From assembly GCA_963820525.1 (NCBI GenBank), contig CAWGAA010000001.1:2304001-2368000 (forward strand): a stretch of DNA of 64,000 bases. Reading direction: 5' to 3'. This document shows, piece by piece, positions 1-13,450 of this stretch. The translations under genes and the position numbers were made by a program. This DNA comes from an uncultured Spirochaetota bacterium (GTDB lineage: Bacteria; Spirochaetota; Spirochaetia; SZUA-6; Fen-1364). The notes below the pieces were generated by a model. It worked only from the letters and a program-made list of their open reading frames with translations. It did not search any database and was not told the DNA's origin. Position 1 is the first letter of the stretch, and the number at the start of each line of letters is the position of its first letter.

Positions 1-2054
1 TCCGAGATGCTGGAAAACACCTCCCGCGCTTCGGCAAACCGGCCGTCGTAGAAGAGAGAGAGCCCCCGGCCGAACGCCTCGATCTCCCTTGCCCTTGCTG
101 AAAAGACCTCGGGAAACATCGGCTCGTACACCGTGACCGGCTCCTTTCTCCCCACGACGGCCACACGGGCTATCTCACGGGCGGGAAAAGCGCCGCCCGC
201 CTTGCCCATGGTCGCGGCGGAAGCCATCGTGTAGGACCGGAACTGCTTGTTGGTCCCTTCCAGCCGGGAGGCGAGGTTCACGGCGTCCCCCAGCATCGTG
301 TAGTTGAAGCGCGTGTGCGAGCCCATGTTTCCCACCACGGCCGGGCCCGAGTGCATTCCGATGCGCATGTAAAGGAACTTGCCCACACGCGAATGCAGGG
401 CGGGACGCATCTGCTCGAGCTTCGCCTGGCAGCGGAGCGCCGCGCGGATGGCGCGCCTGGCATGATCGTCCTGGGAGACCGGCGCGTTCCAGAAGGCGAT
501 GATGGCATCCCCCTCGTATTTATCGATGGTTCCGCCCTCCTCCTGGATGATGTCCGTCATGGCGGAAAGGTACTCGTTCAACAGCGTGGTGAGGTCCTCC
601 GGGCTCAGCACCTCGGAGATGCTCGTGAAGCCCTGGAGGTCCGAGAAGAAGATGGAAAGCTCCCTTTTCTCGCCTCCCAGCTTCAGCCGCTCGGGGTGTG
701 CAATGAGCTCCTCGATGACGTCGGAGCTCAAGTACTGCTTGAACGCGCCCTTGATGTAGCGTTTCTGGCGGCCTTCGGTTGCGTAGCTGGCGAGACTGGA
801 GCCCACGAGGGCGATAGCGACGCCCGTTTCCAGGGCCAGGATCTGAAGCCAGTAGCCCAGGGCGTACGCCGCCAGGCCGAGCGCAGGGGCGAGGGGGAGG
901 AAAGCCCCATAGATCAGGACGCTCCTTCCGGCGCCGGACACGCTCGAGGCCGATATCCCAGCCCCCGCGCAGAGCAGGACCAACAGGGCGATCATGGCCC
1001 ATGGCGGGACGGCGCTGATGAAATCGTTGGAGAGGAGGTTGTCCAGCATCGTGGCGTGTACCTCCACTCCGGGAGAGACCCCTCCCATGGGCGTCGGCTT
1101 GACGTCCAGGAGGGCGGGGGCCGTGTCTCCGAAGAAAACGTACTTGCCGGCGAGCCTGCTAGGATCGATGTTGGGCTCTTTCCCTTCTTGGAGCTGAAGC
1201 TCGCTCTGGATAACGGCGCCGGCCGGCAAGGCCAGGTGCGTCTTGGTGGGCCCCCGGTATCGGAGGATCGCGCGCCCCTCGGAATCGATGGGCACGGAGA
1301 GCCCGTCCACGGTGAGGAGCCCCGGCTTGATGCTTACGACATGCTCTCCCGGATTGCCTGCGAGGTAGGCGGCCAGGCCCTGGGAGGGCACAACCCTGCC
1401 GTCAAAGGTATTGAAGAGCGCCGCCCTGCGCAGCACCGTGTCAGGGTCCGGGCTCAAATTCGTATTGGCCAGCATCCGGGCCGCCTTCGCCACCTCGGGG
1501 ATGGGAAAGCTTGCAAAGGGAAAAGCCAGCGTGCGGGGCTTGACGGACCCGATCCATTCCTGGAGCCCGAAAACTTGAATCTGGCTCTGGGGAAGGTCAG
1601 GCGGCCAGCTTCGAGCCTCCGCGTTCGCCTTTCCCAGGAAAAACGAGTTTACCACCCTGCCGTTCGCAGAAATGGCGCGGCCCAGGCTTTCGTCGTCAGC
1701 CACGCCGATGGGCGATGCCTCGCTGAACAAGAGGTCGAATATCAGCGCTTTCGCGCCCGCCCTCCGGCAGAAATCTGCAATAACCGAAAATACCTCCCTC
1801 GGCCATGGCCAGGGAAGCCCATTCACGTTTTTTCCCCAGTCAAGACTTTCCTGGTCCCGAAAAATGAAGACGATTTTATCGCTCTCCCTGCCCGGGCGCG
1901 CGAAAAGCTGCTCGCGCCAGTCCCACGTTTTGGCCTCGAAGCCCCCGAATGCGCCGGTAAGCCAGATCAGGAGGCCAAGAGCGACGCCCACCCCGGCTAT
2001 GATGCAGCCCTGCGTCAGCCTGCGGAGGGACCGCGCGGTTCCAGCGGCGGCCAT
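1..2054 (-). CDS. CHASE2-domain class III adenylate/guanylate cyclase (3' end runs off the window)
   Basis: Absent from the ORF track because there is no stop in the window. Manual translation from ATG 2054 gives MAAAGTARSL..., an N-terminal TM segment, CHASE2 motifs WPWPR, ALIFDLLFSE and PGVEVHATMLDNLL, TM helices, then cyclase motifs IFFSDLQGFTSISE, IDKYEGDAIIAFW, RIGMHSG and NYTMLGDAVNLASRLEG. Confidence 0.93.
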   Translation of the reverse strand, partial: MAAAGTARSLRRLTQGCIIAGVGVALGLLIWLTGAFGGFEAKTWDWREQLFARPGRESDKIVFIFRDQESLDWGKNVNGLPWPWPREVFSVIADFCRRAGAKALIFDLLFSEASPIGVADDESLGRAISANGRVVNSFFLGKANAEARSWPPDLPQSQIQVFGLQEWIGSVKPRTLAFPFASFPIPEVAKAARMLANTNLSPDPDTVLRRAALFNTFDGRVVPSQGLAAYLAGNPGEHVVSIKPGLLTVDGLSVPIDSEGRAILRYRGPTKTHLALPAGAVIQSELQLQEGKEPNIDPSRLAGKYVFFGDTAPALLDVKPTPMGGVSPGVEVHATMLDNLLSNDFISAVPPWAMIALLVLLCAGAGISASSVSGAGRSVLIYGAFLPLAPALGLAAYALGYWLQILALETGVAIALVGSSLASYATEGRQKRYIKGAFKQYLSSDVIEELIAHPERLKLGGEKRELSIFFSDLQGFTSISEVLSPEDLTTLLNEYLSAMTDIIQEEGGTIDKYEGDAIIAFWNAPVSQDDHARRAIRAALRCQAKLEQMRPALHSRVGKFLYMRIGMHSGPAVVGNMGSHTRFNYTMLGDAVNLASRLEGTNKQFRSYTMASAATMGKAGGAFPAREIARVAVVGRKEPVTVYEPMFPEVFSARAREIEAFGRGLSLFYDGRFAEAREVFSSIS

Positions 2055-2062
2055 GCGGCGGC

Positions 2063-2968
2063 TCAGATGGCGCCGAGGGCCGCCTGGAAGCGGGCCTTGC
2101 GCGCGGCAGGGGCGGGGGCGGCGGGAGCCGCTTTGCCGATGGCGCCCTGCACGTCCTTGATGCGGTCTTCGGGGTCGGGGTGGGTCTTGGCAAAGTCGAC
2201 CCCTCCCGGCTTGAGCTTCTTTTCCATGACCTTGAGCATGCGCACGAGGGCCTGGGGATCGTAGCCGACCTTCTGGAGAATGACCACGGCCTGATGGTCG
2301 GCCTCGGACTCCTGGGCGCGCGAGTAGCCCGAATTGACCAGCGTTGAGGTGATATCCGTGATTGAACCCTCGAAGTCGGCGGTGAGCTGTGCCACCTCCT
2401 CGGGGCTCGCCATCTCCGCGGCAGTTATCGCCGTGCTGGTGAGCGCGGATGTGATGCGGGAGGTCTTGATCGCCTTCAGGGCGTGATCCTTGACCACGTG
2501 GCCGATCTCGTGCGCCAGGATGACCGCCGCCTCGTCCTCGTTCTCTGCGCAGCGCAGCAGGCCGCGCGTCACCAGAATCAGCCCGCCGGGAGCGGCGAAG
2601 GCGTTGATCTCATCGGAATCGAGGATCTGGAAGTGATATCCGCCGAAGGTTTCGGGACGGTCGCTGGCGAGCGCCAGGCTGGTGCCCAGGAGGTTGAGGT
2701 AGGCATTGGCCTTCGCGTCCCCGTAGGCGGTGTACTTGTTGAGAATGACGGCTGCCACCGCGCGGCCGATGTAGTATTCCTGCTCCGGGGTGATGTCCTC
2801 GAAGACCGCCTCTGCGCTCTTGTTGATTGAGGACGCCTGCCCCTCGCTGATACTGCCCGTCGCCACGCCCACCGTGGTGATCGCCTTGCTGATGTCTCCC
2901 AGGCTTTCGCAGCCGGAAACAAAGAACGCCAGGAAAACGAGCAGAAAGAGCGCGCATATCGTTTTCAC
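2063..2968 (-). CDS. M48-family zinc metallopeptidase, lipoprotein
   Basis: GTG start overlaps the upstream stop (GTGA). Lipobox FVSGC. Motifs INAFAAPGG, HEIGH, YSRAQESEAD, THP. Confidence 0.92.
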   Translation of the reverse strand: MKTICALFLLVFLAFFVSGCESLGDISKAITTVGVATGSISEGQASSINKSAEAVFEDITPEQEYYIGRAVAAVILNKYTAYGDAKANAYLNLLGTSLALASDRPETFGGYHFQILDSDEINAFAAPGGLILVTRGLLRCAENEDEAAVILAHEIGHVVKDHALKAIKTSRITSALTSTAITAAEMASPEEVAQLTADFEGSITDITSTLVNSGYSRAQESEADHQAVVILQKVGYDPQALVRMLKVMEKKLKPGGVDFAKTHPDPEDRIKDVQGAIGKAAPAAPAPAARKARFQAALGAI

Positions 2969-3444
2969 CGATCGCCTCCCAGGTCCCCTGACAGCCCACC
3001 CTTGGACAGAAAGGCGGCGACCTGGTCGGGGGTGACTATGTAGGTGGTCGCCATGCGGTCCACCCACGTGTAGTCCAGCTTCTCGTCGCTCTTGTATTTG
3101 GCCTCCACCTCCTTGTTGAACCCCTTGCCGGCGAGGGCCATCTCTCCGCTCGACGCGATCTGGCTCACGTCCTCGGAGCCCGCCTTGAGCACGTACTTTT
3201 TTGTCGAAAGGGCGGAGAGGCTCACCCATCCCTGCTTGCCGGAAAAGCTCACCTTGGCCCACGCGCCCTGGGTGGACTGGACCTCGACCCGGTCCGTATA
3301 GGCGAGCTTGGCGAGGACTTTCCCCAGGAAGCTTGGCGTGGCCCTGATGAACGTCTCCTTGACCGAAACGCTCATCTCATCGCCAAAGGCGGCGGCCGTA
3401 CAGATGAGCAGAACGGCTGCCCACACAATCCGCAATCGCGACAT
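2965..3444 (-). CDS. Secreted bacterial SH3-domain protein
   Basis: Signal peptide MSRLRIVWAAVLLICTAAAFG. SH3b-like IRATPSFLGKVL...WAKV...QGWV. C-terminal ALAGKGF segment. Confidence 0.8.
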   Translation of the reverse strand: MSRLRIVWAAVLLICTAAAFGDEMSVSVKETFIRATPSFLGKVLAKLAYTDRVEVQSTQGAWAKVSFSGKQGWVSLSALSTKKYVLKAGSEDVSQIASSGEMALAGKGFNKEVEAKYKSDEKLDYTWVDRMATTYIVTPDQVAAFLSKGGLSGDLGGDR

Positions 3445-3554
3445 GGGGACCCTCCTCTCGCCGGGCGCGGCGATCCTTCCCGCCATGGTAGCGAGAATCC
3501 CGCCCGTTGTCATCATTCTCTTGATTTTTTCCCGTCTTTCTGTACACCAGAAGC

Positions 3555-4208
3555 GTGACGGCCAAAGAGAGGAAAGAGGCGCTCCTCGGCATCGGCCAGA
3601 GGCTCTTCGCGCTCCAGGGGTATCGCGATGTGAGCGTCCGGGACATCACGGAGGCGGCGGGCCTGGGGACGGCCAGCTTCTACACCTACTTCCCCAGCAA
3701 GGAATCCTTCTACGCCCAGATCATCGACCGGCTCGAGCAGAGAGAGATCAAGGAAATCGAGAGGCGGGTGGGCGGGTTCCAGTCCCCGCTCAACAAGCTG
3801 AAAGCCCTCTTCCGCTCCATCATGAGCGACATGCAGAGAAACGAGATCCTCCGCGGCGTCTACGCCCGGGAGAAGCGCTTCCTGTACCCCGGCCTGGCAG
3901 AGGGCACCCTGCGTGAAACCGGCCTTCCCGCCTACTTCGAGGGGCTGGTCGAGAAGATACTGGCGGAAGGCGCCAGGAAGGGGATCTTCCGCACGAGCGT
4001 GTTCAGGAATCCCAAGCAGATGCTGCTCGCCATCTTCAGATCGCTTCTCATGGACAGCCGGCCCGGCAGCGCCGAGGATCTCATCTCGGACGTGTCCCTG
4101 CTGGTGGAGCGCGGGATAAAGAGGTGGCTGCGCCTGCGCATGAGGGATGAGAGGCTGGACAGACGGGCCTCGCGGATCCCCGGAAGCCCTGAAAAACAAA
4201 CCGAATAA
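3555..4208 (+). CDS. TetR/AcrR-family transcriptional regulator
   Basis: N-terminal [32 protein letters not shown]. Confidence 0.93.
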
Positions 4209-4366
4209 TCCATTCGAATATTCGGCCCGCATTCCCCGCGCGCGGCCCCGGGGGCGGGATTCTCGCGAAAAACCCCGCGTTTTTCGATGATTTTTGGTAT
4301 TCCCGGCGCATTCTGTTGACATTGACATCGACGAATGACCAGATGGTTTTTGCGGGGAGGAAGAAT

Positions 4367-5158
4367 GTGATCGACGTTCTGGCCATCCGTGGTGGAAACG
4401 ACAAATCAGGCATGCCTGAGAACGTGCGGGAAGTGTGCATCCGCCGGGGAGAGATCGTCGGGGTGGTGGGGCCGACGGGAAGCGGAAAAAGCTCCCTGAT
4501 CGCGGATATCGAGCAGCTGGCCCAGGGCGACACACCGACGCGCAGGCACATCCTGATCAACGGCCGCGAGCCGCTGCGGGAGGAGCGCACAGACCCGAAG
4601 AGAAAAATAGTGGCCGAGCTCTCGCAGAACATGAACTTCCTTGCCAACATGTCGGTGGGCGATTTCCTGCGGCTCCACGCCAAGTGCAGGAGGGCTCACG
4701 GCGTGGAGGCCGCTCACGTCATCGAGCTTGCCAACGGGCTCACGGGAGAGCCGATCAGGGAGGACGAGGAGCTCACCATCCTGAGCGGCGGCCAATCCCG
4801 CGCGCTCATGGTGGCCGACGTGGCGCTCATCAGCGACTCCCCCATCGTATTGGTGGACGAGATCGAGAACGCAGGGATCAAGAAGCACGATGCCCTGAGG
4901 CTCCTCTCGGGCCACGGAAAGATCGTTCTCGTGGTGACCCACGACCCGGTGCTCGCCCTGATGGCCGAGCGGCGGATCATCATGAAAATGGGCGGCATGG
5001 CGAAGGTGGCCGAGACCTCCCGGGGAGAGAAGATCCTCGCCCAGAGGCTTCGGAGGATGGACGAATGGATGCTCACCCTGCGGGAGCTGGTCCGGCAGGG
5101 CGAGCCGCTTGAGGACGTGACCCATCTCGCGGGGGTGCAATCGGGGATCATGGCGTGA
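4367..5158 (+). CDS. Soluble ABC-type ATPase (no partner permease)
   Basis: GTG 4367 follows a GGGGAGG SD. Walker A GPTGSGKS, signature LSGGQ, Walker B VLVDE, VTHD. No TM partner nearby. Confidence 0.85.
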
Positions 5159-5856
5159 AGCTCATCATCGTTGCCGGGACGCCCGGCTCCGGCAAAACCT
5201 CCATCCTGGTGAACGCCGTGAGGCTCCTCAAGGCGGGCGGACGGTCGGTTTCCGTGGTGAAGATCGACTGCCTTGCCACCGACGACGACGAGCGCTACGC
5301 GCGGCTTTCCATCCCGACTCTCGTCGGGCTCGCCAAGGACGTCTGCCCGGATCACTACACCGTCTACAATATGGAGGAAATCCTCCAGTGGGCCAACGGC
5401 CTCTCGACGGAGTTCCTCCTCGTGGAGACGGCGGGGCTCTGCCACAGGTGCGCGCCCTACACTTCCGGATCCGCCGGGGTCTGCGTCATCGATGCCACCT
5501 CGGGACCAAACACCCCCTTGAAGGTCGGCCCCCTGTTGAGCACGGCCAACATCATCGTGATCACCAAGGGAGACGTCATCTCACAGGCGGAGAGGGAGAT
5601 CTTCCGGGAGCGCCTCTTGGAGATGAATCCCCGGGCAATGCTGATCGACGCCAATGGCTTAAGCGGTCAGGGCGCAGCCGAGCTCGTGGCGCTTGTCCGG
5701 GACTGGCCGGAGGTGAATCTGGAAGACGAGCGGCTGCGGCACACGGCTCCGCTTTCCGTATGCACCCTCTGCGCGGGAGAGACCCGGGTGGCGCGGGAGC
5801 ACCACCGGGGGATCCTGCGGCGCATCGACGGTTTCCAGTCCTACACGGGTGAGTGA
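5155..5856 (+). CDS. G3E-family (HypB/UreG/CobW-like) P-loop GTPase, putative metallochaperone
   Basis: [14 protein letters not shown] (compare UreG CPH), [11 protein letters not shown]4-like TKGD, C-terminal CTLC. Confidence 0.85.
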
Positions 5857-6523
5857 AGTGAAGAGTGACCCCGCCCGGCACCTCCCCGGCCACAACTGCG
5901 GCGCATGCGGCCACGCGCGCTGCGACTCTTTCGCCGCCGCGCTCGCGGAGGGCAGGGCGGGCGTCACGGACTGCCTCGTTCTCCAGCAGGAACGCTACAG
6001 CGGCCAAAGGAGGCTCCTGGAAGAGCTTTTCGGGGGCCGGGAACGGGAGCGGGTGGGACCACGGCCCGAAAAACCCGTGGGGCTGATAGACGGATACGAG
6101 GCGGATTTCGTTCTCGCTCCCCTTCGGGGGGAGGGATCGTGCCGGGAGATTCTCATGCAGGTGACTCCTTCGGCGGTGGGCGCCGGGGACGTGATTCGCT
6201 ACAGGCCCTTGGGATGCCCGGTCACCCATTTCGCGCGGATCATAGAAAAAAGAGACGGGCTTCTCGTGGTGCATGTTGTTGGCCCGCGGCACAGGCTCGG
6301 GGACGAGAGCTTCAACTTTGCGGAAATCGGCCTGTGCATGGTGATCGGTTTCGAAGGCGAGGTCCGGGGCACCCCGCCCGCGGTGGGCGAGACGGTGCGG
6401 TTCATGCCGGCCGAGTGCATGATGCAGAAGGTCCATTCCGGCGTCGTGGTGAGCTGTGAAGGAAAGAGAGTGCGACTCGAAGGGATAGACCTGAAGGTCT
6501 GGGCCCCCCCGGTGAAAAGATGA
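5849..6523 (+). CDS. Fe-S-binding protein (N-terminal LPGxNCGxCG 4Fe-4S domain) with Cys/His-rich C-terminal part
   Basis: [14 protein letters not shown]...DC is an RnfB/AcsC-type FeS domain. Additional Cys/His motifs SCRE, GCPVTH, GLC, CMMQKVH. Confidence 0.8.
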
Positions 6524-7809
6524 ATCGCCATTACCACCTCTCGTGCGTGGCTTGCGGAAAGGCGCACGAGGACTCGAAAGAGGGTTTCTTCCTGGACTGC
6601 ACGGAGGAGCATCCCCCTTCCCTGCTTCGGGCGGTCTACAACAGAAAGGATTTCAACGTCAGGGAAGACCTCAGCGGAATCTTCCGCTATCTCGACTGGC
6701 TTCCCGTTCGAAGGTCTCTGGAATGCGGCGGCCGCCCCGTGGTCTACAGGAGCGAGCGGCTCGCCGGGAAGGTGGGCCTCGAGAGGCTGTTCGTCGCTTT
6801 CAGCGGCTACTGGCCCGAGCGGGGCGCGGGGATGGAGACATGCAGCTTCAAGGAGCTTGAGGCCCTGGCCGTTCTTGCCCGAATCCCCCTTGAAAGCGAG
6901 AAAAGCCTCGTGGTTTCCTCGGCGGGCAACACAGCCCGCGCCTTTCTCCAGATAGCGTCCCTCAATCGCATCCCCATCCTGGTTGTCGTTCCCGAGTCCG
7001 CGCTCCCCGACATGTGGATGACCGTGGAGAGGCACCCCGTCATCAGGCTGGCCGTCGTGAAGGGCAATGCCGACTACCTGGACGCCATCGAGCTGGGCAA
7101 TGCGATCGCCACCCTCGACGGCTTCCACCCCGAGGGGGGAGCCCGGAACATCGCCCGGCGTGACGGCATGGGCACGGTGCTGCTCTCCGCGGTGGAAGAG
7201 CTGGGTGAGATTCCCGCGCATTATTTCCAGGCCGTGGGAAGCGGGACGGGGGCAATCGCGGCCTGGGAGATGGCGGTGAGGCTCACAGCGGACGGCAGAT
7301 TCGGCTCGCGCGGAATGAGGCTGCACCTGGTGCAGAACGAGCCTTTCGCCATCATGACCCGCGCCTGGCAGGCGGGAAGCAGGGAGCTCCCCCAAACGGA
7401 TCCCCTCGAGGCGAAGAAAAAGATCGCCCTGATGCATTCCCGCGTGCTCTCCAACCGGAAGCCTCCCTATGGAATCGCCGGCGGAGTGTTCGACGCTCTT
7501 TCGGACACCGGTGGGCTGATGTATTCGGTTTCCAATGAGGAGGCGCGGGAGGCGGGCGGCCTCTTCGAATCCCTGGAGGGCGTCGATCTCGACCCCGCGG
7601 CAGAGGTGGCCCTCGCCGGAATGATCCAGGCCGTAAAGGCGGGAAGCGTGAATCCGGAAGAGACGGTGCTGCTCAACGTCACCGGCGGGGGGAGCGCACG
7701 GCTGGCGGCGGAGGGCAGAGCGCGGAAGGTGGAGCCTGACTTCATTTTCACGCCGGAGGACGCGAAGAGGATTCGAAGCGTTGAAACCCTGTTGATCAAG
7801 GCGAGCTGA
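6520..7809 (+). CDS. Cysteate synthase (PLP, threonine-synthase-like, methanogen type)
   Basis: FSGYWPERGA..ETCSFKELEA (PLP Lys111), SSAGNT, EGGARNIARRDGMG, YFQAVGSGTG, VLSNRKPPY, LLNVTGGG match my recollection of the cysteate synthase family. Confidence 0.88.
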   Translation: MNRHYHLSCVACGKAHEDSKEGFFLDCTEEHPPSLLRAVYNRKDFNVREDLSGIFRYLDWLPVRRSLECGGRPVVYRSERLAGKVGLERLFVAFSGYWPERGAGMETCSFKELEALAVLARIPLESEKSLVVSSAGNTARAFLQIASLNRIPILVVVPESALPDMWMTVERHPVIRLAVVKGNADYLDAIELGNAIATLDGFHPEGGARNIARRDGMGTVLLSAVEELGEIPAHYFQAVGSGTGAIAAWEMAVRLTADGRFGSRGMRLHLVQNEPFAIMTRAWQAGSRELPQTDPLEAKKKIALMHSRVLSNRKPPYGIAGGVFDALSDTGGLMYSVSNEEAREAGGLFESLEGVDLDPAAEVALAGMIQAVKAGSVNPEETVLLNVTGGGSARLAAEGRARKVEPDFIFTPEDAKRIRSVETLLIKAS

Positions 7810-7823
7810 GGAGGTCCGGCTTC

Positions 7824-9068
7824 ATGGTTGATCTGTTCGACAAGTGCAGGGGAGAGGGGGGGTATTTCGGCGCCTTCCGAGTCAAGGATGACATGTACTA
7901 TTCCCGGCCCGTTCTGGAAGGAACCCCGGGGCCCCGGATGACCTTTCAGGGAAAAGAAGTGGTCGTGTGGGCCATCAACAACTACCTCGGGATGGCGGGA
8001 AACGCCGAGGTGAAAAAGGCCGCCGCCGCATCCCTGGAGCGGTGGGGCACCTACACCCCGATGGGCTCCCTGATGCTCACGGGCAACACCGAGGCCCACA
8101 TGCGGCTTGAGCGCCTGCTTTCCGAATTCGTCGGAAAGCAGGCCGCAAACCTCTTCAACTACGGCTACCTCGGGGTCATCGGAACCATCAGCGCCCTGGT
8201 GGGGCCCGAGGACGTGATCGTCATGGACCGCCTCAGCCACGCAAGTATCGTGGACGGGGTGGTCCTCGCCTCGGCCGGCAGGCGCTTCCGGCCCTTCAAG
8301 CACAATGACCTCGACAACCTCGAGTTCCATCTCAAGGGGGCAAACCGGGACAGGAAGGGCGGCATCCTCATCGTCACCGAAGGGGTGTACGGGATGAGGG
8401 GAGACCTGGCCGACCTCCCGGGCATCTGCGCCCTGAAGGAGAAGTACGGGGCGCGCCTGTTCGTTGACGACGCGCACGGCTTCGGCGTGGTAGGGGAGAA
8501 CGGGCGCGGGATCGGGGAGCACTTCGGCGTGCAGGAGAGGATCGACCTGTACTTCTCCACCTTCGCCAAGTCTTTTGCCGCAATCGGAGGCTTCACGGCC
8601 GGGGAAGAGGAGCCGATCCGCTACATCAAGTACAACGCCCGCACCAACGTGTTCGCCAAGAGCCTCCCCATGGTCTTCGTCGATGCGATAGCGACCTCAC
8701 TCGAGGTGATCAAGAGCAGGCCGGAGCTTCGTCGGCGCATGTGGCGGATCTCGGAAAGGCTTCAGAAGGGCCTCACGGACCTCGGCTACGACATCGGAGA
8801 CACCAGGACACCCATCACCCCCGTGTACGTGCCGGCAGGCGACGTTCAGACCGCCATGGCGATGATCCGGATGCTCCGGGAGGAATACGGGATCTTCGTT
8901 TCCGGGGTCATGTACCCCGTGGTCCCGCCCGGGGTGGTCATGTTCCGGATGATTCCCACCGCCTCCCACACGGAAGAGGACGTGGACAGGACCCTCTCCG
9001 GGTTCAAGAGCATGCGAGACCGGCTGAAGCTGGACTTGAGCCAGAAGCCCTCGCTGAAGAACAGGTAG
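7824..9068 (+). CDS. capB: Alpha-oxoamine synthase, cysteate C-acyltransferase (CapB/SulA) type
   Basis: NNYLG, SHASIVDG, VDDAHG, YFSTFAKS (PLP Lys249) and KYNARTNVFAKSLPM (Lys279, where SPT/BioF have FS[AT]), RMIPTASHT. Lies directly after the cysteate synthase. Confidence 0.8.
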   Translation: MVDLFDKCRGEGGYFGAFRVKDDMYYSRPVLEGTPGPRMTFQGKEVVVWAINNYLGMAGNAEVKKAAAASLERWGTYTPMGSLMLTGNTEAHMRLERLLSEFVGKQAANLFNYGYLGVIGTISALVGPEDVIVMDRLSHASIVDGVVLASAGRRFRPFKHNDLDNLEFHLKGANRDRKGGILIVTEGVYGMRGDLADLPGICALKEKYGARLFVDDAHGFGVVGENGRGIGEHFGVQERIDLYFSTFAKSFAAIGGFTAGEEEPIRYIKYNARTNVFAKSLPMVFVDAIATSLEVIKSRPELRRRMWRISERLQKGLTDLGYDIGDTRTPITPVYVPAGDVQTAMAMIRMLREEYGIFVSGVMYPVVPPGVVMFRMIPTASHTEEDVDRTLSGFKSMRDRLKLDLSQKPSLKNR

Positions 9069-9165
9069 ATCAGGGCTCACGTTGAAGGCGCGGGCCCGTG
9101 TGCCGCAGCGAGAAAAAACGGGCGCGCCAGCCATGGGGCGCCCGCTGCACGCCCGCTGCTCTTCC

Positions 9166-9194
9166 TTGACACGCGGCCGCGATTCAAGGACACT
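9166..9194 (+). promoter_or_regulatory. Putative sigma70 promoter of pst operon 1
   Basis: TTGACA-17 bp-GACACT. Confidence 0.5.
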
Positions 9195-9205
9195 TGCCGC
9201 TGATC

Positions 9206-10132
9206 ATGAGTCAGCGGCGGTCGGACAGGTTTGCCGGGAGGCCATGGCAGTCTCCCACGCTCATGGTATGCGCCTTTTTGCTTGCCGCCCTGCTCTCCTC
9301 CGGCTGCGGTCCGAGCCGCGGCGAGGTCGCCTCCACCTCAGCTTCGGCCAACTCCACAATCCAGATCACGGGGTCCGACACCCTGGTCAACCTGGCCCTT
9401 GCATGGGCCGAAGCCTACATGAACCTGCACCCCGACGTTCGTATCTCCGTGACGGGAGGCGGCTCGGGCACGGGCATCGCCTCCCTGATAAACGGCACGA
9501 TCAACATCGCCGACGCGTCCCGCGAAATGACGGCGGAAGAGATCGCCGCGGCGCGGAAGAACGGAATCGATCCCGTTCGATTCACGGTGGCCCTCGATGC
9601 CATCGCCGTCGTTGTCAACCTCGAGAACCCCGTCACGGGCCTTACCCTGCCCCAGCTCTCGCAAATCTACACGGCCAGGATCTCCACCTGGAGTGAAGTA
9701 GGCGGCGACAACCGTCCCATCGTGCTTCTCTCACGCGAGTCCAACTCGGGAACCTACGTATACTTCCTCGAGCGCGTCGTGCGCCTGGGAGAGAAAGGCA
9801 ACAGCGCCCTGTTCTCCCCCGACACCCTGCTGATGCCCTCATCCGAGGGGATAAGCGTCGAGGTGAAGCAGAACCCGAACGCCATCGGCTATGACGGCCT
9901 CGGCTACGTCACCCCCCAACAGAAGGTTGTCGCGGTCGCTTCCGAGCCGGGCAGGCCGTTCGTTCTTCCCTCCTCGAAGACGGTCCTGGACGGCTCGTAC
10001 CCGATCGCCCGGCCCCTGTTCATGTACACGGCGGGCGAGCCCTCCGGGGCGACCAGGCAGTATCTGGACTGGATCATGACCGACGGCCAGGCCATCGTGA
10101 AAAACCTCGGCTTCGTGCCGCTCAAGGAGTAG
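9206..10132 (+). CDS. pstS: Phosphate ABC transporter substrate-binding lipoprotein (PstS family)
   Basis: Lipobox LSSGC, ITGSDT, GGGSGTGI, SRESNSGT, YPIARPL. Start uncertain (9194, 9206 or 9266). Confidence 0.95.
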   Translation: MSQRRSDRFAGRPWQSPTLMVCAFLLAALLSSGCGPSRGEVASTSASANSTIQITGSDTLVNLALAWAEAYMNLHPDVRISVTGGGSGTGIASLINGTINIADASREMTAEEIAAARKNGIDPVRFTVALDAIAVVVNLENPVTGLTLPQLSQIYTARISTWSEVGGDNRPIVLLSRESNSGTYVYFLERVVRLGEKGNSALFSPDTLLMPSSEGISVEVKQNPNAIGYDGLGYVTPQQKVVAVASEPGRPFVLPSSKTVLDGSYPIARPLFMYTAGEPSGATRQYLDWIMTDGQAIVKNLGFVPLKE

Positions 10133-10137
10133 GGAAA

Positions 10138-11049
10138 ATGAGCGCGGCGAAGGACCGGCAGTCAACAAGGGCGCGCCGATGGGAAATCGCCATCGAAGCC
10201 TTCATCCGGGCCCTTGGCTTCTCCACCGTCGCCTTGGTCTGCCTTATCTTTTTGTTCCTGCTTCGCGAAGGGCTTCCCGCCTTCTTCGAGGTCGCCCCCG
10301 GAAATCTTTTTAGCTCCCACTGGTATCCCACTTTCGGCTTCTTCGGCACCCTGCCGCTCATCCTGGGCTCCATTCTCGTCACGCTGGTGGCCATCGTGAT
10401 CGCGCTGCCCCTGGGGGTGGCCACCGCCGTATTCGTCCGGGAGGTGGCGCCGGGGTGGGTCCGCGAGATCCTCAAGCCGATGATCGAGATCCTGGCCGGA
10501 ATTCCCTCCGTGGTGCTGGGATTCTTCGGCATGACCATCATCGCCCCGTTCGTGCGCCAGGCCCTCGGCGCGCCCACGGGCCTTACGGCGTTCACCGGCG
10601 CCCTCGTGCTCGCCTACATGAGCCTTCCCACGATCATCAGCGTGGCCGAAGACGCGCTGGACGCGGTTCCCAAGGGCTACCGGGACGCGGGCCTGGCGAT
10701 GGGAGCGACGAAGTGGCAGACGATCTGGCGGGTGGTGGTCCCCGCGGGACGCTCCGGGATCCTCACCGCCGTCATGCTCGGCATGGGGCGCGCCATCGGA
10801 GAGACCATGGCGGTGATGATGGTGACGGGAAACGCGGCGCGCATGCCCCTCGATTTTTCCTCGCTCATGGAGCCGGTGCGAACCATGACGGCCACCATCG
10901 CCGCGGAGATGGGTGAGGTGGCCCGGGGGAGCACCCACTACCACACCCTGTTCGCCATCGGAATCATCCTCTTCCTCATCACCTTCGCCACGAACCTCGC
11001 CGCCGCATCGGCGATCTTCAAGAAGCGGCGCCAGGGAGGGCTTCGCTGA
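10138..11049 (+). CDS. pstC: Phosphate ABC transporter permease PstC
   Basis: [23 protein letters not shown]. Confidence 0.96.
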   Translation: MSAAKDRQSTRARRWEIAIEAFIRALGFSTVALVCLIFLFLLREGLPAFFEVAPGNLFSSHWYPTFGFFGTLPLILGSILVTLVAIVIALPLGVATAVFVREVAPGWVREILKPMIEILAGIPSVVLGFFGMTIIAPFVRQALGAPTGLTAFTGALVLAYMSLPTIISVAEDALDAVPKGYRDAGLAMGATKWQTIWRVVVPAGRSGILTAVMLGMGRAIGETMAVMMVTGNAARMPLDFSSLMEPVRTMTATIAAEMGEVARGSTHYHTLFAIGIILFLITFATNLAAASAIFKKRRQGGLR

Positions 11050-11894
11050 TGAACCGCTACCTGGTCCAGCGCCTCGGTTTCATCCTCCTGGGCGCGATTG
11101 CCCTGATCGTGGTCATCCCCATCCTGATCGTGGTGGCAACGATCGTGGCCAAGGGCCTGGGGGCGATGAGCTGGGAGTTCCTCTCCTCCATGCCCCGGGG
11201 CGGCATGAAGGAGGGGGGCATCCTTCCCGCCATTGTCGGGACGGTCCTCCTCACCCTGGGCTGCGCGGCGGCCGCGGTGCCCGTCGGGGTTGGAGGGGCG
11301 ATCTATCTTTCCGAATACGCGCGCGACACGCGGCTCACGCGGGCGATACGCCTTGCCATCGTGAACCTGGCGGGAATCCCCTCGATCGTGTACGGGCTCT
11401 TCGGGCTGGGGATGTTCGTCCTGTTCTTCCGCTTCGGCGCCTCGATCCTTGCCGGGTCGCTGACCCTGGCGATCATGACCCTTCCGGTGATCATCTCCAC
11501 GGGAGAGGAGGCGCTGCGCTCCGTGCCCGTGGAGTTTCGAACCGTGTCGGCCAGCCTCGGCGGCACGCGCTGGCAGGGCATCCAGAACATCGTGCTACCC
11601 CAGGCTCTTCCCGGAATCATCACGGGAGTGATCCTGGGGCTCCTCCGCGCCGCGGGAGAAACGGCCCCCATCCTTTTCACGGTGGCCGCCTTCTACCTTC
11701 CCCGCCTGCCCAGCTCGCCGTTCGACCAGACCATGGCCCTGCCCTATCACCTCTATGTCATCAGCACGCAGGTGCCCGGCATGCCCTCCAAGGTTCAGTA
11801 CGGGACCGCCCTCGTGCTCCTGGCCTTCGTTCTCTCGCTCAACGTGGTCGCCACTCTCATCAGGAGGCATTTCCGGAGGAAGAGGCAGTGGTAG
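11049..11894 (+). CDS. pstA: Phosphate ABC transporter permease PstA
   Basis: NLAGIPSIVYGLFG, RAAGETAPI. Confidence 0.96.
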   Translation: MNRYLVQRLGFILLGAIALIVVIPILIVVATIVAKGLGAMSWEFLSSMPRGGMKEGGILPAIVGTVLLTLGCAAAAVPVGVGGAIYLSEYARDTRLTRAIRLAIVNLAGIPSIVYGLFGLGMFVLFFRFGASILAGSLTLAIMTLPVIISTGEEALRSVPVEFRTVSASLGGTRWQGIQNIVLPQALPGIITGVILGLLRAAGETAPILFTVAAFYLPRLPSSPFDQTMALPYHLYVISTQVPGMPSKVQYGTALVLLAFVLSLNVVATLIRRHFRRKRQW

Positions 11895-11905
11895 AGGGCA
11901 GATCC

Positions 11906-12664
11906 GTGGTCAACCCCAAGATCATCATTGAAAGCCTTTCCTACTCCTATGGAGGCAAGTCCTCGCTCGAGGATATCAGCCTCTCCATCCCGGGCAAGGC
12001 GGTCACCGTCTTTTTCGGCCCGGCCGGCGGCGGAAAGACCACCCTGATGCGCCTGATCAACAGGCTCAACGACCTGGTGGGAGAAACCCGCATGACGGGA
12101 AGGATCCTCCTCGACGGTGAGGATATCTATGCGCCGAACACCGACGTGACGCGCCTGCGCCGCCTCGTGGGCATGGTCTTCGCCCTGCCCCTCCCCCTGC
12201 CCGGCACGATCCGGGAGAACGTCGTCTACGGCCCACGCCTTGCGGGAACGCGGAACAAGGCAACGCTTGAGGGAATCATCGAGCGAAGCCTCGCCCAGGC
12301 GGCACTCTGGGGCGAGGTGAAAGACCGCCTGGACAGCCCCGCTTCGAGCCTCTCCGGGGGCCAGCAGCAGAGGTTGTGCATCGCGCGCAGCCTCGCCCTG
12401 GAGCCGGAAGTGCTCCTCCTCGACGAGCCGACCTCCGGCCTGGATCCGATCTCGACGGCCAAGGTGGAAGAATCCCTCCTGGAGCTCAAGAAGAGCTACG
12501 CCATCATCATGGTTCCCCACAGCGTCGGGCAGGCGGCCCGGATCGCGGATTACGCCGCCTTCTTCCTCATGGGCCGGCTGGTGGAGTTCGACGAGGGTCC
12601 CACCGTCTTCACCTCTCCTCGGGAGAAGCAGACCGAGGACTACATCACGGGCAGGTTCGGGTAG
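11906..12664 (+). CDS. pstB: Phosphate ABC transporter ATPase PstB (divergent copy)
   Basis: [41 protein letters not shown]. True start lies inside the longer ORF 10913..12664. Confidence 0.92.
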   Translation: MVNPKIIIESLSYSYGGKSSLEDISLSIPGKAVTVFFGPAGGGKTTLMRLINRLNDLVGETRMTGRILLDGEDIYAPNTDVTRLRRLVGMVFALPLPLPGTIRENVVYGPRLAGTRNKATLEGIIERSLAQAALWGEVKDRLDSPASSLSGGQQQRLCIARSLALEPEVLLLDEPTSGLDPISTAKVEESLLELKKSYAIIMVPHSVGQAARIADYAAFFLMGRLVEFDEGPTVFTSPREKQTEDYITGRFG

Positions 12665-12667
12665 GCC

Positions 12668-13435
12668 ATGGGTGGAATATCGGTTGATGGGCTTTCTTTC
12701 TCCTATGGCAGCCGACTGGCGCTGTCCGACGTGCGGGTCGAGATCGGGGAGCGGAGGATCACCGCCCTGATCGGCCCGTCGGGCTGCGGCAAGTCCACGT
12801 TCCTCAGGTGCCTCAACCGGATGAACGACACGATCCCCTCTTCCCGCGTGAAGGGGAGCGTGAAGCTGGACGGCCAGGACATCTATGCTCCGGGCACCGA
12901 CGTGGTGGCGCTTCGAAGGCGCGTGGGCATGGTCTTCCAGAGACCCAACCCCTTCCCCCAGTCCGTGTTCGACAACGTCGCCTTCGGCCCCCGCGTGCTG
13001 GGCACGCACAGCGGCAGGGAGCTCGCCGACGCGGTGGAGCAGAGCCTGCGGGGCGCAGACCTGTGGAACGAGGTGAAAGACTCGATGTCCCAGGACGCCC
13101 TTGCCCTATCGCTGGGCCAGCAGCAGCGGCTGTGCATCGCGCGCGTGATCGCCGTGAAGCCCGAGGTGATCCTCATGGACGAGCCCTGCTCGGCCCTCGA
13201 CCCCATTGGCACGCTTCGCATCGAGGAGCTGATGCGGACCCTGGTGAACGACTACACCATCGTCATCGTGACGCACAACATGCAGCAGGCGGCGCGGGTT
13301 TCCGACTACACCGGCTTCTTCTGGCTGAACGAGGAGAGGGCGGGAATACTGGCGGAGTACGGGCCCACGGAGGAGCTTTTCACGAGCCCGCGGGACAAGC
13401 GTACTGAAGACTACATCACCGGCCGATACGGATAA
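12668..13435 (+). CDS. pstB: Phosphate ABC transporter ATPase PstB
   Basis: [44 protein letters not shown]. Confidence 0.96.
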
Positions 13436-13450
13436 CAGGAGGGCATTGTC

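What the first reader, a model, noticed from the sequence alone, without database searches (positions are those of the whole stretch)
4367..6523. Uncharacterised ATPase + G3E GTPase + Fe-S trio translationally coupled to cysteate synthase: candidate sulfite-supply or metal-loading module
Seen: three genes with overlapping stop/start codons lead directly into cysteate synthase. They are a permease-less ABC ATPase, a UreG/HypB-like GTPase with CPDH, CHRC and CTLC, and an Fe-S protein with extra Cys/His ligands. Known: neither PLP enzyme needs such a maturation system, but cysteate synthase needs sulfite, whose source in non-sulfate-assimilating anaerobes is unclear. I recall similar genes near coenzyme M genes in methanogens, but cannot verify this here. 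Inference: an undescribed NTP-driven Fe-S system that generates or delivers sulfite-level sulfur for sulfonate synthesis.
Basis: partly seen in the sequence, partly recalled or inferred. Interest (0 to 1): 0.85.

Follow-up and report, generated by a model that had tools for sequence, protein, structure and literature searches.

The report
Candidate sulfite-supply trio beside cysteate synthase
Three tightly linked genes of unknown function (an ATPase, a nickel-chaperone-like GTPase and a small iron-sulfur protein) lead into the sulfite-using enzyme cysteate synthase in this spirochaete, and the same trio sits beside sulfite-using enzymes in many archaea and bacteria, making it the best candidate for how oxygen-free microbes obtain sulfite.

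Summary
One operon runs from 4367 to 9068 behind a TetR gene: a permease-less ABC ATPase, a HypB/UreG-like GTPase, a COG2000 Fe-S protein, cysteate synthase (TIGR03844, 514.7 bits) and an alpha-oxoamine synthase.

The trio is a conserved unit at 52-84% identity. In the 80 best loci, 45 adjoin ComA and 16 adjoin cysteate synthase. These two enzymes are unrelated and share only sulfite as substrate.

An Fe-S-family hit was found only in genomes that also carry cysteate synthase or ComA:
- Spirochaetes: 7 of 7.
- Halobacteriota: 32 of 32.
- Bacteroidales: 6 of 6.
- Genomes with a non-adjacent trio: 11 of 12.

The window's genome lacks Sat, PAPS-reductase and sulfite-reductase families.

My best reading is an NTP-driven Fe-S module that supplies sulfite. 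The chemistry and the sulfur source are inferred, not shown.

Three results count against a universal role. Twenty-two of the 42 genomes with a trio-family gene in the two samples below also have a cysteate synthase that lacks it nearby or at all: 42 of 74 archaeal and 13 of 20 spirochaete genomes with cysteate synthase have no trio. No anticorrelation with PAPS-reductase genes appeared in archaea.

Print notes the trio beside coenzyme M genes with its role "unknown" (PLoS Genet 2025). This scan found it before on other DNA, in a methanogen (e1-6482907). The bacterial sulfonolipid context and the link through ComA and cysteate synthase are the additions here.

The parts
3555..4208 (+). TetR-family regulator directly upstream. 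Relatives conserve it beside cysteate synthase.
   Evidence: PF00440 48.1 bits. TetR homologues at 43-58% identity flank the cysteate synthase-AOS pair in 10 of 10 relatives' cysteate-synthase loci examined: L002, L003 and L005-L008 (6 of 7 short loci; none seen in the 4.2-kb L004) and L089-L095, L099 and L100 (9 of 9).
4201..4286 (+). Intergenic signals. An inverted repeat at 4201-4225 is a candidate operator. A terminator-like hairpin at 4266-4286 follows the TetR gene.
   Evidence: These are pattern matches only; function was not tested.
4367..5158 (+). Soluble ABC-type ATPase, 263 aa from GTG 4367 (alternative starts ATG 4343 and TTG 4316). Walker A 35-42, Q87, LSGGQ 139-143, Walker B 160-165, H192.
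   Evidence: PF00005 58.4 bits. Motifs. Best solved relatives are transporter NBDs at E 1e-11. 52-77% identical to trio ATPases of methanogens and bacteria.
5155..5856 (+). G3E-class GTPase (HypB/UreG-like), 233 aa. Walker A 8-15, ETAG 91-94, TKGD 137-140. All 7 Cys (39, 64, 96, 99, 110, 203, 206) plus H67 and H217 are invariant in 33 sequences.
   Evidence: PF02492 47.2 bits. CPDH aligns with the CPH of UreG 4hi0. Model pLDDT 83.4; closest folds are HypB 2wsm at E 8e-10 and UreG 4hi0. Invariants from alignment A4.
5849..6523 (+). COG2000-type Fe-S protein, 224 aa. The N-terminal RnfB-type 4-Cys domain uses C17, C20, C25 and C42. The C-terminal beta-barrel domain has no solved relative and carries invariant C123, H127, C190 and H196 (C98 and C163 at >=90%).
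   Evidence: PF04060 47.9 bits. Alignment A2 of 58 sequences. Model pLDDT 90.2. N-domain matches RnfB 9eri_B at Z 5.5; best C-domain match is Z 4.1.
6520..7809 (+). Cysteate synthase (O-phosphoserine + sulfite -> cysteate + phosphate).
   Evidence: TIGR03844 514.7 bits against a cut-off of 324.9.
7824..9068 (+). Alpha-oxoamine synthase. Probably a cysteate-C-fatty-acyltransferase, the first committed step to a capnine-type sulfonolipid.
   Evidence: PF00155 151.5 bits. No NCBIfam equivalog reaches its cut-off: KBL 313.8 of 460, SPT 310.5 of 640, BioF 304.3 of 426. Paired with cysteate synthase in spirochaete relatives and in 4 Bacillota loci. Substrate is inferred from that pairing and from the published CysS-CFAT pathway (PMC11211663, passage read).

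Best explanation
The three genes encode one soluble, nucleotide-driven metallo/Fe-S module. Its job is to provide sulfite, or an enzyme-bound sulfite equivalent, to sulfite-fixing enzymes. In this spirochaete it is co-translated with cysteate synthase and an alpha-oxoamine synthase under a TetR regulator, so it feeds a cysteate-to-sulfonolipid pathway.

Shown here:
- The operon structure and the family assignments.
- The trio behaves as an inseparable unit.
- It is associated with two non-homologous sulfite consumers in archaea and bacteria.
- The canonical sulfate-to-sulfite genes were not found in this genome.

Inferred working model:
- The COG2000 protein is the catalytic and redox subunit. 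Its RnfB-type [4Fe-4S] domain relays electrons. The C-terminal barrel, with invariant Cys/His, holds a metal or cluster where the sulfur is converted.
- The HypB/UreG-like GTPase has a UreG-position Cys-Pro-(Asp)-His motif and seven invariant cysteines. It either loads that site or acts as a nucleotide-gated carrier of electrons or sulfur.
- The ABC ATPase supplies the conformational energy.

I favour reduced sulfur (sulfide or cysteine persulfide) oxidised to sulfite, with NTP hydrolysis paying for pushing electrons onto low-potential carriers. Sulfate as substrate remains open.
For: 1. Unit. GTPase plus Fe-S occur in 80 of 80 loci and ATPase in 76 of 80, always in the same order, at 52-84% identity to the window. 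All three junctions in the window overlap.

2. Adjacency. ComA (TIGR03849, 324 bits for the representative) lies within 48 nt on the same strand in 45 of 80 loci. Cysteate synthase lies within 290 nt in 15 loci and within 3.4 kb in 1 more. The gene order differs between lineages. In Methanolobus it is CysS-trio-ComDE. In Bacillota and in the window it is trio-CysS-AOS. In Anaerolineales it is trio-CysS-ComDE.

3. Twelve of the 19 non-adjacent loci were followed to their genomes. Eight have CysS over the cut-off, 2 have ComA over the cut-off, 1 has a ComA-like gene at 264 bits (cut-off 280), and 1 (G046) has neither.

4. Taxon samples.
- Spirochaete relatives: Fe-S hit in 7 of 41 genomes. All 7 are among the 20 with CysS, and 0 are among the other 21.
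- Halobacteriota: 32 of 151 genomes. All 32 are among the 74 with CysS and 0 among the other 77. In 20 of the 32 the gene lies within 2.5 kb of CysS.
- Bacteroidales: 6 of 151 genomes. Two close copies are in CysS genomes and 4 divergent copies are in ComA genomes.

5. The same slot is filled by canonical sulfite makers elsewhere. In spirochaete G030, cysNC, two PAPS_reduct genes and a siroheme gene lie 2-7 kb from CysS-AOS. In the trio-less archaea G346 and G235 a PAPS_reduct gene lies 1.6-2.8 kb from CysS.

6. The window's genome is 96.7% complete and has no match to PF01747, PF01507 or PF01077.

7. Reduced-sulfur hint. A divergent four-gene form, ATPase-GTPase-NifS-like cysteine desulfurase-Fe-S, occurs in Bacteroidales, Halobacteriota and spirochaete G016. 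In G016 it lies 2.3 kb from TetR-CysS-AOS. M. acetivorans medium uses sulfide as the sulfur source 'including CoM biosynthesis' (PMC11844431, passage).

8. The need for such a system is acknowledged in print. Yu et al. [quoted passage not shown]
Against: - No biochemical, genetic or expression evidence exists here.
- The trio is not universal among sulfite users. 13 of 20 spirochaete and 42 of 74 Halobacteriota genomes with CysS have no Fe-S-family hit. 9 of the 20 spirochaete genomes have neither the trio nor PAPS_reduct.
- In methanogen samples, containment within CysS genomes could simply mark 'methanogen genes'. Related genomes are not independent.
- In Bacteroidales the background rate of CysS or ComA is already 90 of 151, so 6 of 6 is weak.
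- There is no anticorrelation with PF01507 in Halobacteriota: at least 24 of 32 trio genomes have hits.
- One trio genome (G046) has neither CysS nor ComA.
- In five close relatives the trio is on a different contig from CysS.
- A 224-aa protein without siroheme would be an unprecedented catalyst for a multi-electron sulfur oxidation.
- A CysP-like permease (NF053884, 225.7 bits, cut-off 400) follows the trio in 3 Bacteroidales loci. This points to sulfate rather than sulfide.
- The NifS gene in the divergent form may only serve Fe-S cluster assembly.
Confidence: 0.55

Rival explanations
1. The role is the same (sulfite supply) but the direction is reductive. The module takes sulfate and reduces it to sulfite without APS. 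NTP hydrolysis lowers the potential of electrons passed through the Fe-S proteins, so the module is a non-homologous replacement of CysDN/Sat plus CysH.
For: A CysP-like PiT-family permease (NF053884, 225.7 bits) lies directly downstream, and a two-component system upstream, in 3 Bacteroidales loci: L068, L073 and L074. An ATPase, a GTPase and an Fe-S protein parallel CysD, CysN and the Fe-S APS reductase in number and kind (my analogy, not a test). The genome has no Sat, CysD/H or Sir.
Against: ABC ATPases are not known to adenylylate sulfate (recalled knowledge). No sulfate transporter is conserved beside the trio in methanogens, Bacillota or spirochaetes. The divergent form carries a cysteine desulfurase, a donor of reduced sulfur. 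The permease scores below its cut-off, so its substrate is unknown.
Confidence: 0.15
2. The trio is a metallocentre or Fe-S maturation system, with a G3E chaperone, an ATPase and a scaffold. Its client is another enzyme of sulfonate metabolism, for example the CoM synthase MMP16 in archaea. It does not make sulfite itself.
For: The GTPase is structurally closest to the Ni chaperones HypB and UreG and keeps Cys-Pro at the UreG metal site. In the divergent archaeal operon the Fe-S gene directly precedes MMP16 (TIGR03287, 526 and 499 bits). NifS in the four-gene form fits cluster assembly. SufC is a precedent for a soluble ABC ATPase in Fe-S assembly (recalled).
Against: MMP16 is over its cut-off in 0 of 5 bacterial trio genomes, including the window's. 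The enzymes actually adjacent in 61 of 80 loci, ComA and cysteate synthase, are not metallocluster enzymes by established knowledge of those families. The bacterial operons (trio-CysS-AOS) contain no obvious client.
Confidence: 0.15
3. The trio handles sulfite rather than making it. It senses, sequesters, channels or detoxifies free sulfite around the consuming enzyme, protecting sulfite-sensitive targets.
For: It explains equally well the association with sulfite-consuming enzymes. It also explains why many CysS genomes do without it.
Against: Two NTPases plus an Fe-S protein is heavy machinery for binding or channelling. A reductive detoxifier co-translated with a sulfite consumer would compete with it. 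The sulfite source in this genome would remain unexplained.
Confidence: 0.1
4. The adjacency is incidental. The trio is a mobile three-gene cassette of unrelated function that happens to lie near sulfonate genes.
For: The cassette has moved between archaea and bacteria (tree). It lies apart from CysS in five close relatives.
Against: It adjoins two unrelated sulfite-fixing enzymes, in different gene orders, in at least five lineages. Containment in CysS/ComA genomes holds in three taxon samples.
Confidence: 0.05

Closest known systems
The 'ATPase / Ni2+-binding GTPase / COG2000 domain Fe-S protein' genes noted beside coenzyme M biosynthesis genes of methanogens (Fig. 2B legend, PLoS Genet 2025;21:e1011695 = PMC12068725; preprint PMC11844431)
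   Same: These are orthologues. The same three genes occur in the same order. The window's copies are 62-70% (ATPase), 63-68% (GTPase) and 52-58% (Fe-S) identical to Methanobacteriaceae copies. Both sit beside a sulfite-consuming enzyme.
   Different: The paper gives only a legend sentence and says the role 'remains unknown' (passages read). Its supplements hold no mention of COG2000. Here the trio is in a bacterium, coupled to cysteate synthase plus an alpha-oxoamine synthase (sulfonolipid), with no ComDE in the operon and no MMP16 over its cut-off in the genome. That narrows the shared step to sulfite.
HypB / UreG nickel-metallochaperone GTPases (G3E family)
   Same: The fold matches: HypB 2wsm at E 8e-10, TM 0.60/0.68; UreG 4hi0 at TM 0.64/0.75. 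Walker A, ETAG and TKGD are present, and Cys-Pro sits at the position of UreG's CPH motif.
   Different: It scores far below the HypB and UreG equivalog cut-offs: 45 against 121.2 and 22.8 against 204.2. It has seven invariant cysteines and a C-terminal CxxC extension. No hydrogenase or urease partner genes lie beside it in the loci annotated here. Its metal is unknown.
Canonical assimilatory sulfite supply (Sat or CysDN, CysC, CysH)
   Same: It occupies the same genomic slot. In spirochaete G030 these genes lie beside CysS-AOS. It likewise uses ATP, GTP and an Fe-S protein.
   Different: There is no sequence relationship, and none of these families was found in the window's genome. The chemistry of the trio is unknown.
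Soluble ABC ATPases that power metallocentre chemistry (SufC of the SUF system; component A2 of methyl-CoM reductase activation). Recalled from knowledge, not tested here.
   Same: A complete ABC nucleotide-binding domain without a membrane partner, working with Fe-S proteins.
   Different: No SufB/SufD or Mcr-activation genes lie adjacent. The best sequence matches are generic transporter NBDs at E 1e-11.
RnfB / corrinoid Fe-S protein N-terminal [4Fe-4S] domain (PF04060)
   Same: The N-terminal 60 residues match: PF04060 47.9 bits; RnfB 9eri_B at Z 5.5, 30% identity over 60 residues. The four Cys are invariant.
   Different: The rest of the protein (residues ~75-224) is a beta-barrel domain with invariant Cys/His and no clear solved relative; the best match is Z 4.1. 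The RnfB model scores below its cut-off, 23.4 against 68.7.

Membership tests
Methanogen CoM-locus trio (ATPase / Ni-GTPase / COG2000 Fe-S) | Three genes in the order ATPase-GTPase-Fe-S, orthologous to the methanogen copies | tested here: met
   tblastn gives 52-70% identity over full length to copies in Methanobacteriaceae, Methanocaldococcus, Methanopyri and Methanolobus loci. The window falls in the 'type 1' clade of the concatenated tree (support values not read).
Methanogen CoM-locus trio (ATPase / Ni-GTPase / COG2000 Fe-S) | Lies beside a gene of sulfonate biosynthesis | tested here: met
   The stop of the Fe-S gene overlaps the start of cysteate synthase. 61 of 80 related loci adjoin ComA or CysS.
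G3E GTPases (Pfam PF02492 cobW/HypB/UreG) | Score over the family cut-off; Walker A, ExxG-type switch and [NT]KxD guanine motif | tested here: met
   47.2 bits against 20.7. GTPGSGKT at 8-15, ETAG at 91-94, TKGD at 137-140.
HypB (TIGR00073) / UreG (TIGR00101) equivalogs | Score over the curated equivalog cut-off | tested here: not met
   HypB 45 bits against 121.2. UreG 22.8 bits against 204.2.
HypB / UreG | Metal-binding Cys-(Pro)-His motif at the dimer interface | tested here: inconclusive
   CPDH aligns with GCPH of UreG 4hi0 with one extra residue, and C64, P65 and H67 are invariant. Metal binding was not tested.
ABC transporter ATPase (PF00005) | Walker A, Q-loop, LSGGQ signature, Walker B and H-loop | tested here: met
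   58.4 bits against 25. All five motifs were found.
ABC transporter (as a transporter) | Cognate membrane permease encoded alongside | tested here: not met
   No conserved membrane-protein cluster lies next to the trio in the neighbour clustering of 80 loci.
PF04060 Fe-S domain | Score over the cut-off and four conserved cysteines | tested here: met
   47.9 bits against 23. C17, C20, C25 and C42 are invariant in 58 sequences.
RnfB (TIGR01944) | Score over the cut-off, with ferredoxin-like domains after the N-terminal domain | tested here: not met
   23.4 bits against 68.7, matching only residues 11-42.
Cysteate synthase (TIGR03844) | Score over the equivalog cut-off across the full length | tested here: met
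   514.7 bits against 324.9, covering model positions 1-395 of 398.
Cysteate-C-fatty-acyltransferase (CFAT/CapB-type alpha-oxoamine synthase) | Alpha-oxoamine synthase fold, specific use of cysteate, and pairing with cysteate synthase | tested here: inconclusive
   The fold and family are met (PF00155, 151.5 bits), but no NCBIfam equivalog reaches its cut-off. Pairing with CysS is conserved. Substrate cannot be tested here, and no reference CFAT sequence was compared.
Canonical assimilatory sulfate reduction (Sat/CysDN, CysH, Sir) | Presence of PF01747, PF01507 and PF01077 genes in the genome | tested here: not met
   No match in G000, which is 96.67% complete. The controls rang in 5, 13 and 11 of 14 reference genomes.
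SUF/NIF-type Fe-S assembly system | Cysteine desulfurase plus scaffold (SufB/D, NifU/IscU) with the ATPase | tested here: inconclusive
   The window operon contains neither a desulfurase nor a scaffold. The divergent four-gene relatives contain a NifS-like gene (456-500 bits, cut-off 530.75) but no recognised scaffold.

The most novel reading that the evidence does not exclude
The trio is a previously uncharacterised enzyme system. A soluble ABC ATPase and a cysteine-rich G3E GTPase drive a small RnfB-domain metalloprotein. That protein oxidises sulfide or cysteine-derived persulfide to sulfite anaerobically, and probably hands it on as a protein-bound species. This would be the missing sulfite source for coenzyme M in many methanogens and for sulfonolipids in strict anaerobes, exchanged as a cassette between archaea and bacteria.
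Probability: 0.35. Interest if true: 0.92.

Novelty: categorically new. Interest (0 to 1): 0.82.

Why it matters
Sulfonates made by strict anaerobes need sulfite. Examples are coenzyme M, which is essential for all methane formation, and the sulfonolipids of gut and sediment bacteria. Many of these organisms live on sulfide and lack the known route from sulfate, so the origin of their sulfite is an acknowledged gap (PMC6286981, passage).

This work names a concrete three-gene candidate. It shows that the only feature shared by all its genomic partners is the use of sulfite. It also shows that the trio exists in bacteria with no coenzyme M pathway. Together these make the question directly testable by knock-out with sulfite rescue and by anaerobic reconstitution.

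If the chemistry is confirmed it would be a new kind of sulfur-oxidising or sulfate-reducing metalloenzyme. It would also be a possible target for lowering methane formation.

Tried and rejected
- **Complex prediction** of ATPase + GTPase + Fe-S protein (alignments A3, A4, A2): verdict 'no answer', score 0.00. It gives no evidence either way.
- **RNA runs** for 4300-9100: none was listed.
- **Fold searches of the Fe-S model.** Foldseek against the PDB gave nothing at E <= 0.001. VIA-align wide gave a best C-domain Z of 4.1, which is not informative. The Atlas returned only the protein's own family, score 0.77.
- **Fused forms of the C-domain.** None was found among longer proteins. In the profile search of 1.84 billion representatives, full-length matches are 189-254 aa. 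Proteins over 350 aa match only the N-terminal Fe-S domain (1538 hits at E <= 0.001, 128 at <= 1e-10, 21 at <= 1e-30).
- **Anticorrelation with PAPS_reduct in Halobacteriota:** not seen. PF01507 covers many paralogues, so the test is blunt.
- **MMP16-maturation idea:** rejected for bacteria, 0 of 5 over the cut-off.
- **Xsc as an alternative sulfite source in G000:** no match over the cut-off, best 318 bits against 676.
- **The pst genes downstream (9194-14122):** these are an ordinary phosphate transporter operon (PstS TIGR02136, 258 bits), not part of the system.
- **Literature searches.** None of these found any paper assigning a function to the trio:
  - 'phosphosulfolactate synthase' + 'source of sulfite': 0 papers.
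  - 'COG2000': only the MMP16 paper.
  - 'cysteate synthase' from 2024 on: 9 papers.
  - Mixed CoM and sulfite terms.
  - bioRxiv supplements are closed, and Fig. S1 of the PLoS Genet paper is an image I could not see. It may show the trio's archaeal distribution.
- **Gene calling.** My first greedy ORF caller failed on high-GC loci and was replaced by a GC3-based one.
Full report
**What is in the window.** The + strand between 3555 and 9068 carries six genes:
- a TetR regulator (3555-4208);
- an ABC-type ATPase (4367-5158);
- a G3E-class GTPase (5155-5856);
- a 224-residue protein with an N-terminal PF04060 Fe-S domain (5849-6523);
- cysteate synthase (6520-7809; TIGR03844, 514.7 bits against a cut-off of 324.9);
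- an alpha-oxoamine synthase (7824-9068).

The junction sequences show GTGA, an 8-nt overlap and ATGA between the first four genes of the operon. A GGAGG lies ten bases before the last ATG. The ATPase most likely starts at GTG 4367. That codon has a GGAGG-type ribosome site, and the homologues align from there. The upstream TTG at 4316 is part of a TTGACA hexamer. A terminator-like hairpin (4266-4286) and an inverted repeat (4201-4225) separate the operon from the TetR gene. The genes downstream (9194-14122) are an ordinary pstSCAB-phoU phosphate operon. Earlier notes of this scan and source names of homologues place the organism among uncultured spirochaetes.

**The three proteins.** The ATPase has every ABC motif but no membrane partner.

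The GTPase has Walker A, ETAG and TKGD. Its model (pLDDT 83.4) is closest to HypB and UreG. Its CPDH aligns with the nickel-binding CPH of UreG. It scores far below the HypB and UreG equivalog cut-offs. All seven of its cysteines are invariant in 33 homologues.

The Fe-S protein model (pLDDT 90.2) has an RnfB-like N-terminal domain (Z 5.5). Its C-terminal beta-barrel part has no clear solved relative. Besides the four cluster cysteines, C123, H127, C190 and H196 are invariant in 58 sequences, including 31%-identical paralogues. The family is compact. A profile search of 1.84 billion representatives gave 21 hits at E <= 1e-30. All full-length matches are about 190-255 aa, with no informative fusions.

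**The trio is a unit, and its neighbours are sulfite users.** A scan of one genome per prokaryotic species found at least 479 loci encoding the Fe-S protein, and the best 80 were kept. GTPase and Fe-S genes are present in 80 of 80 and the ATPase in 76 of 80, always in the same order.

In 45 loci, all Methanobacteriaceae-type, the gene immediately upstream on the same strand is phosphosulfolactate synthase ComA. In 16 loci cysteate synthase is adjacent:
- upstream in Methanolobus, Methanotrichaceae and other Methanosarcinales, with ComDE after the trio;
- downstream in four Bacillota, followed by an alpha-oxoamine synthase and a short-chain dehydrogenase as in the window;
- downstream in an Anaerolineales genome, followed by ComDE.

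ComA and cysteate synthase are unrelated enzymes in different pathways, and what they share is sulfite as substrate.

Of the 19 loci with neither enzyme adjacent, I followed 12 to their genomes. Eleven have cysteate synthase, ComA or a ComA-like gene elsewhere. One Bacillota genome has neither.

**Taxon samples.**
- *Spirochaete relatives (41 genomes).* Cysteate synthase is over its cut-off in 20. The Fe-S gene is in 7, all among those 20.
- *Halobacteriota (151 genomes).* 74 have cysteate synthase and 32 have an Fe-S-family gene. All 32 are among the 74. In 20 of them the gene lies within 2.5 kb of cysteate synthase.
- *Bacteroidales (151 genomes).* Cysteate synthase (33) and ComA (57) never co-occur. 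Two close copies of the trio lie in cysteate-synthase genomes and four divergent copies in ComA genomes.

These counts are not independent events. In the archaeal sample any methanogen-specific gene would show the same containment. The adjacency data and the bacterial cases carry the argument.

**Three forms.** A concatenated tree (FastTree, 69 sequences, 686 columns, midpoint root, support values not inspected) separates three clades.
- Type 1 includes the window. In it the bacterial copies nest with those of Methanobacteriaceae, which suggests transfer between the domains. I did not test this.
- Type 3 is a divergent archaeal form. It sits in complete CoM operons: ATPase-GTPase-Fe-S-MMP16-CysS-ComDE.
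- Type 2 is a four-gene form with a NifS-like cysteine desulfurase between the GTPase and the Fe-S gene. It occurs in Bacteroidales behind a divergent Crp/Fnr regulator, in Halobacteriota, and in spirochaete G016, where it lies 2.3 kb from TetR-CysS-AOS.

**The slot is filled by known sulfite makers elsewhere.** In close relatives the TetR-CysS-AOS cluster lacks the trio. In the window's genome the trio is inserted between TetR and cysteate synthase. In spirochaete G030 the same cluster lies 2-7 kb from cysNC, two PAPS-reductase-family genes and a siroheme gene. In two trio-less archaea a PAPS-reductase-family gene lies 1.6-2.8 kb from cysteate synthase. In several relatives TetR is followed by a YeiH-family 'putative sulfate export' transporter. 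The window's genome, 96.7% complete, has no match to ATP sulfurylase, PAPS reductase or sulfite reductase families. It does carry a second PF02679 (ComA-family) gene elsewhere.

**Interpretation.** The best-supported function is supply of sulfite to sulfite-fixing enzymes. How it does this is inference.

I favour oxidation of reduced sulfur for three reasons. Methanogens that carry ComA-trio operons are grown on sulfide (recalled). Sulfide is stated as the sulfur source for CoM synthesis in M. acetivorans medium. The type 2 form includes a cysteine desulfurase.

Sulfide to sulfite releases six electrons at about -116 mV (recalled value). Passing them to ferredoxin or F420 would need energy, which two NTPases could provide. 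This would resemble the way component A2 and the nitrogenase Fe protein couple NTP hydrolysis to electron transfer (recalled analogies).

The alternative is sulfate as substrate. A CysP-like permease behind the trio in three Bacteroidales loci hints at this.

A metallocentre-maturation role cannot be excluded. However, the obvious archaeal client, MMP16, is over its cut-off in 0 of 5 bacterial trio genomes.

**Against the sulfite-supply reading.**
- The trio is missing from 13 of 20 spirochaete and 42 of 74 Halobacteriota genomes with cysteate synthase. It is therefore at most one of several solutions.
- Nine spirochaete genomes have neither the trio nor PAPS reductase.
- No anticorrelation with PF01507 appears in archaea.
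- One trio genome has no known sulfite user.

**What is known.** The only printed mention I found is one figure-legend sentence. It says that genes for an ATPase, a Ni2+-binding GTPase and a COG2000 Fe-S protein are often colocalised with CoM biosynthesis and that their role remains unknown (PLoS Genet 2025 e1011695 and its preprint; passages read). The searches are listed under Tried and rejected. An earlier report of this scan (e1-6482907) reached the same candidate role for a methanogen copy. I saw it after my own neighbourhood analysis.

New here:
- the bacterial sulfonolipid context;
- the explicit argument from ComA and cysteate synthase;
- the three forms, including the one with NifS;
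- the negative results above.

**Verdict.** This is a real, strongly conserved, uncharacterised system. Confidence is about 0.55 that it supplies sulfite and about 0.35 for the specific anaerobic sulfur-oxidation reading.

Noticed in passing
L105:6751-10158, L106:6652-10002, L107:4098-7568, L108:3434-6818, L112:8286-11622, L113:5793-9129, L089:6734-10151: A divergent four-gene form of the module: ATPase, GTPase, a NifS-like cysteine desulfurase (456-500 bits to TIGR03402, cut-off 530.75) and an Fe-S-like protein (26-29% identical to the window's). In Bacteroidales it lies behind a divergent Crp/Fnr regulator. All 4 Bacteroidales carriers have ComA and no cysteate synthase.
   Followed up: partly
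L109-L111, L114, L115 (Halobacteriota): A third, divergent form lies in complete coenzyme M operons: ATPase-GTPase-Fe-S-like, then MMP16 (TIGR03287, 526 and 499 bits in L111 and L115), cysteate synthase and ComDE. In L109 the Fe-S gene directly abuts cysteate synthase.
   Followed up: partly
Bacteroidales order sample, 151 genomes: Cysteate synthase (33 genomes) and ComA-family PF02679 (57 genomes) never occur together in this sample. This suggests two alternative entries into sulfonate synthesis in this order.
   Followed up: no
L093 (G030:C1:530000-549999); G346:C1:8003-11413; G235:C1:835339-839891: Where the trio is missing, canonical sulfite-making genes can sit beside cysteate synthase. 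In G030 these are cysNC (805 aa), two PAPS_reduct genes and a siroheme synthase gene. In two archaea a PAPS_reduct-family gene lies 1.6-2.8 kb away.
   Followed up: partly
L090:12368-13450, L089:5543-6625 and equivalents in L091, L092, L095: In relatives the TetR gene beside CysS-AOS is followed by a YeiH-family 'putative sulfate export' transporter (PF03601, 204-211 bits). That position is taken by the trio operon in the window. The window's genome has one PF03601 gene far away (C1:2889214-2890107).
   Followed up: partly
L068:8790-region, L073:8790-9815, L074 (Bacteroidales): A CysP-like PiT-family permease (NF053884, 225.7 bits, cut-off 400) directly follows the trio. A histidine kinase and a response regulator precede it.
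   Followed up: partly
L080:4029-5916 and L067 (upstream of the trio): A geranylgeranyl-reductase-family flavoprotein (TIGR02032, 250 bits) and a small radical SAM protein (TIGR04038, 201 bits) precede the trio in one Methanosarcinales and one Anaerolineales locus. A 426-aa polyferredoxin precedes it in ANME-2 (L088:5159-6439).
   Followed up: no
L018:8861-9748 and 44 other Methanobacteriaceae loci: A 295-aa protein with an F420-ligase (CofE-like) domain (PF01996, 89 bits) is conserved directly downstream of ComA-ATPase-GTPase-Fe-S. It may belong to the system there.
   Followed up: no
G000:C1:679496-680242 (L116:6455-7297): The window's genome has a second putative sulfite user: a PF02679 ComA-family gene (279 bits, but only 90 bits to archaeal ComA TIGR03849). 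It lies beside a PrpD/MmgE-family gene, with an integron integrase 1.8 kb away.
   Followed up: partly
window 11900-12664 and 12668-13435: Two tandem pstB-type ABC ATPase genes in the phosphate transporter operon.
   Followed up: no
L047:7504-7953: In one Spirochaetales genome the trio's GTPase gene matches in two overlapping pieces. This could be a frameshift or a sequencing error.
   Followed up: no
window 3-2054 (-), 2063-3262 (-), 2965-3516 (-): The upstream neighbours on the other strand are a CHASE2-adenylate/guanylate cyclase, an M48 peptidase and an SH3-domain protein. No link to the operon was seen.
   Followed up: no
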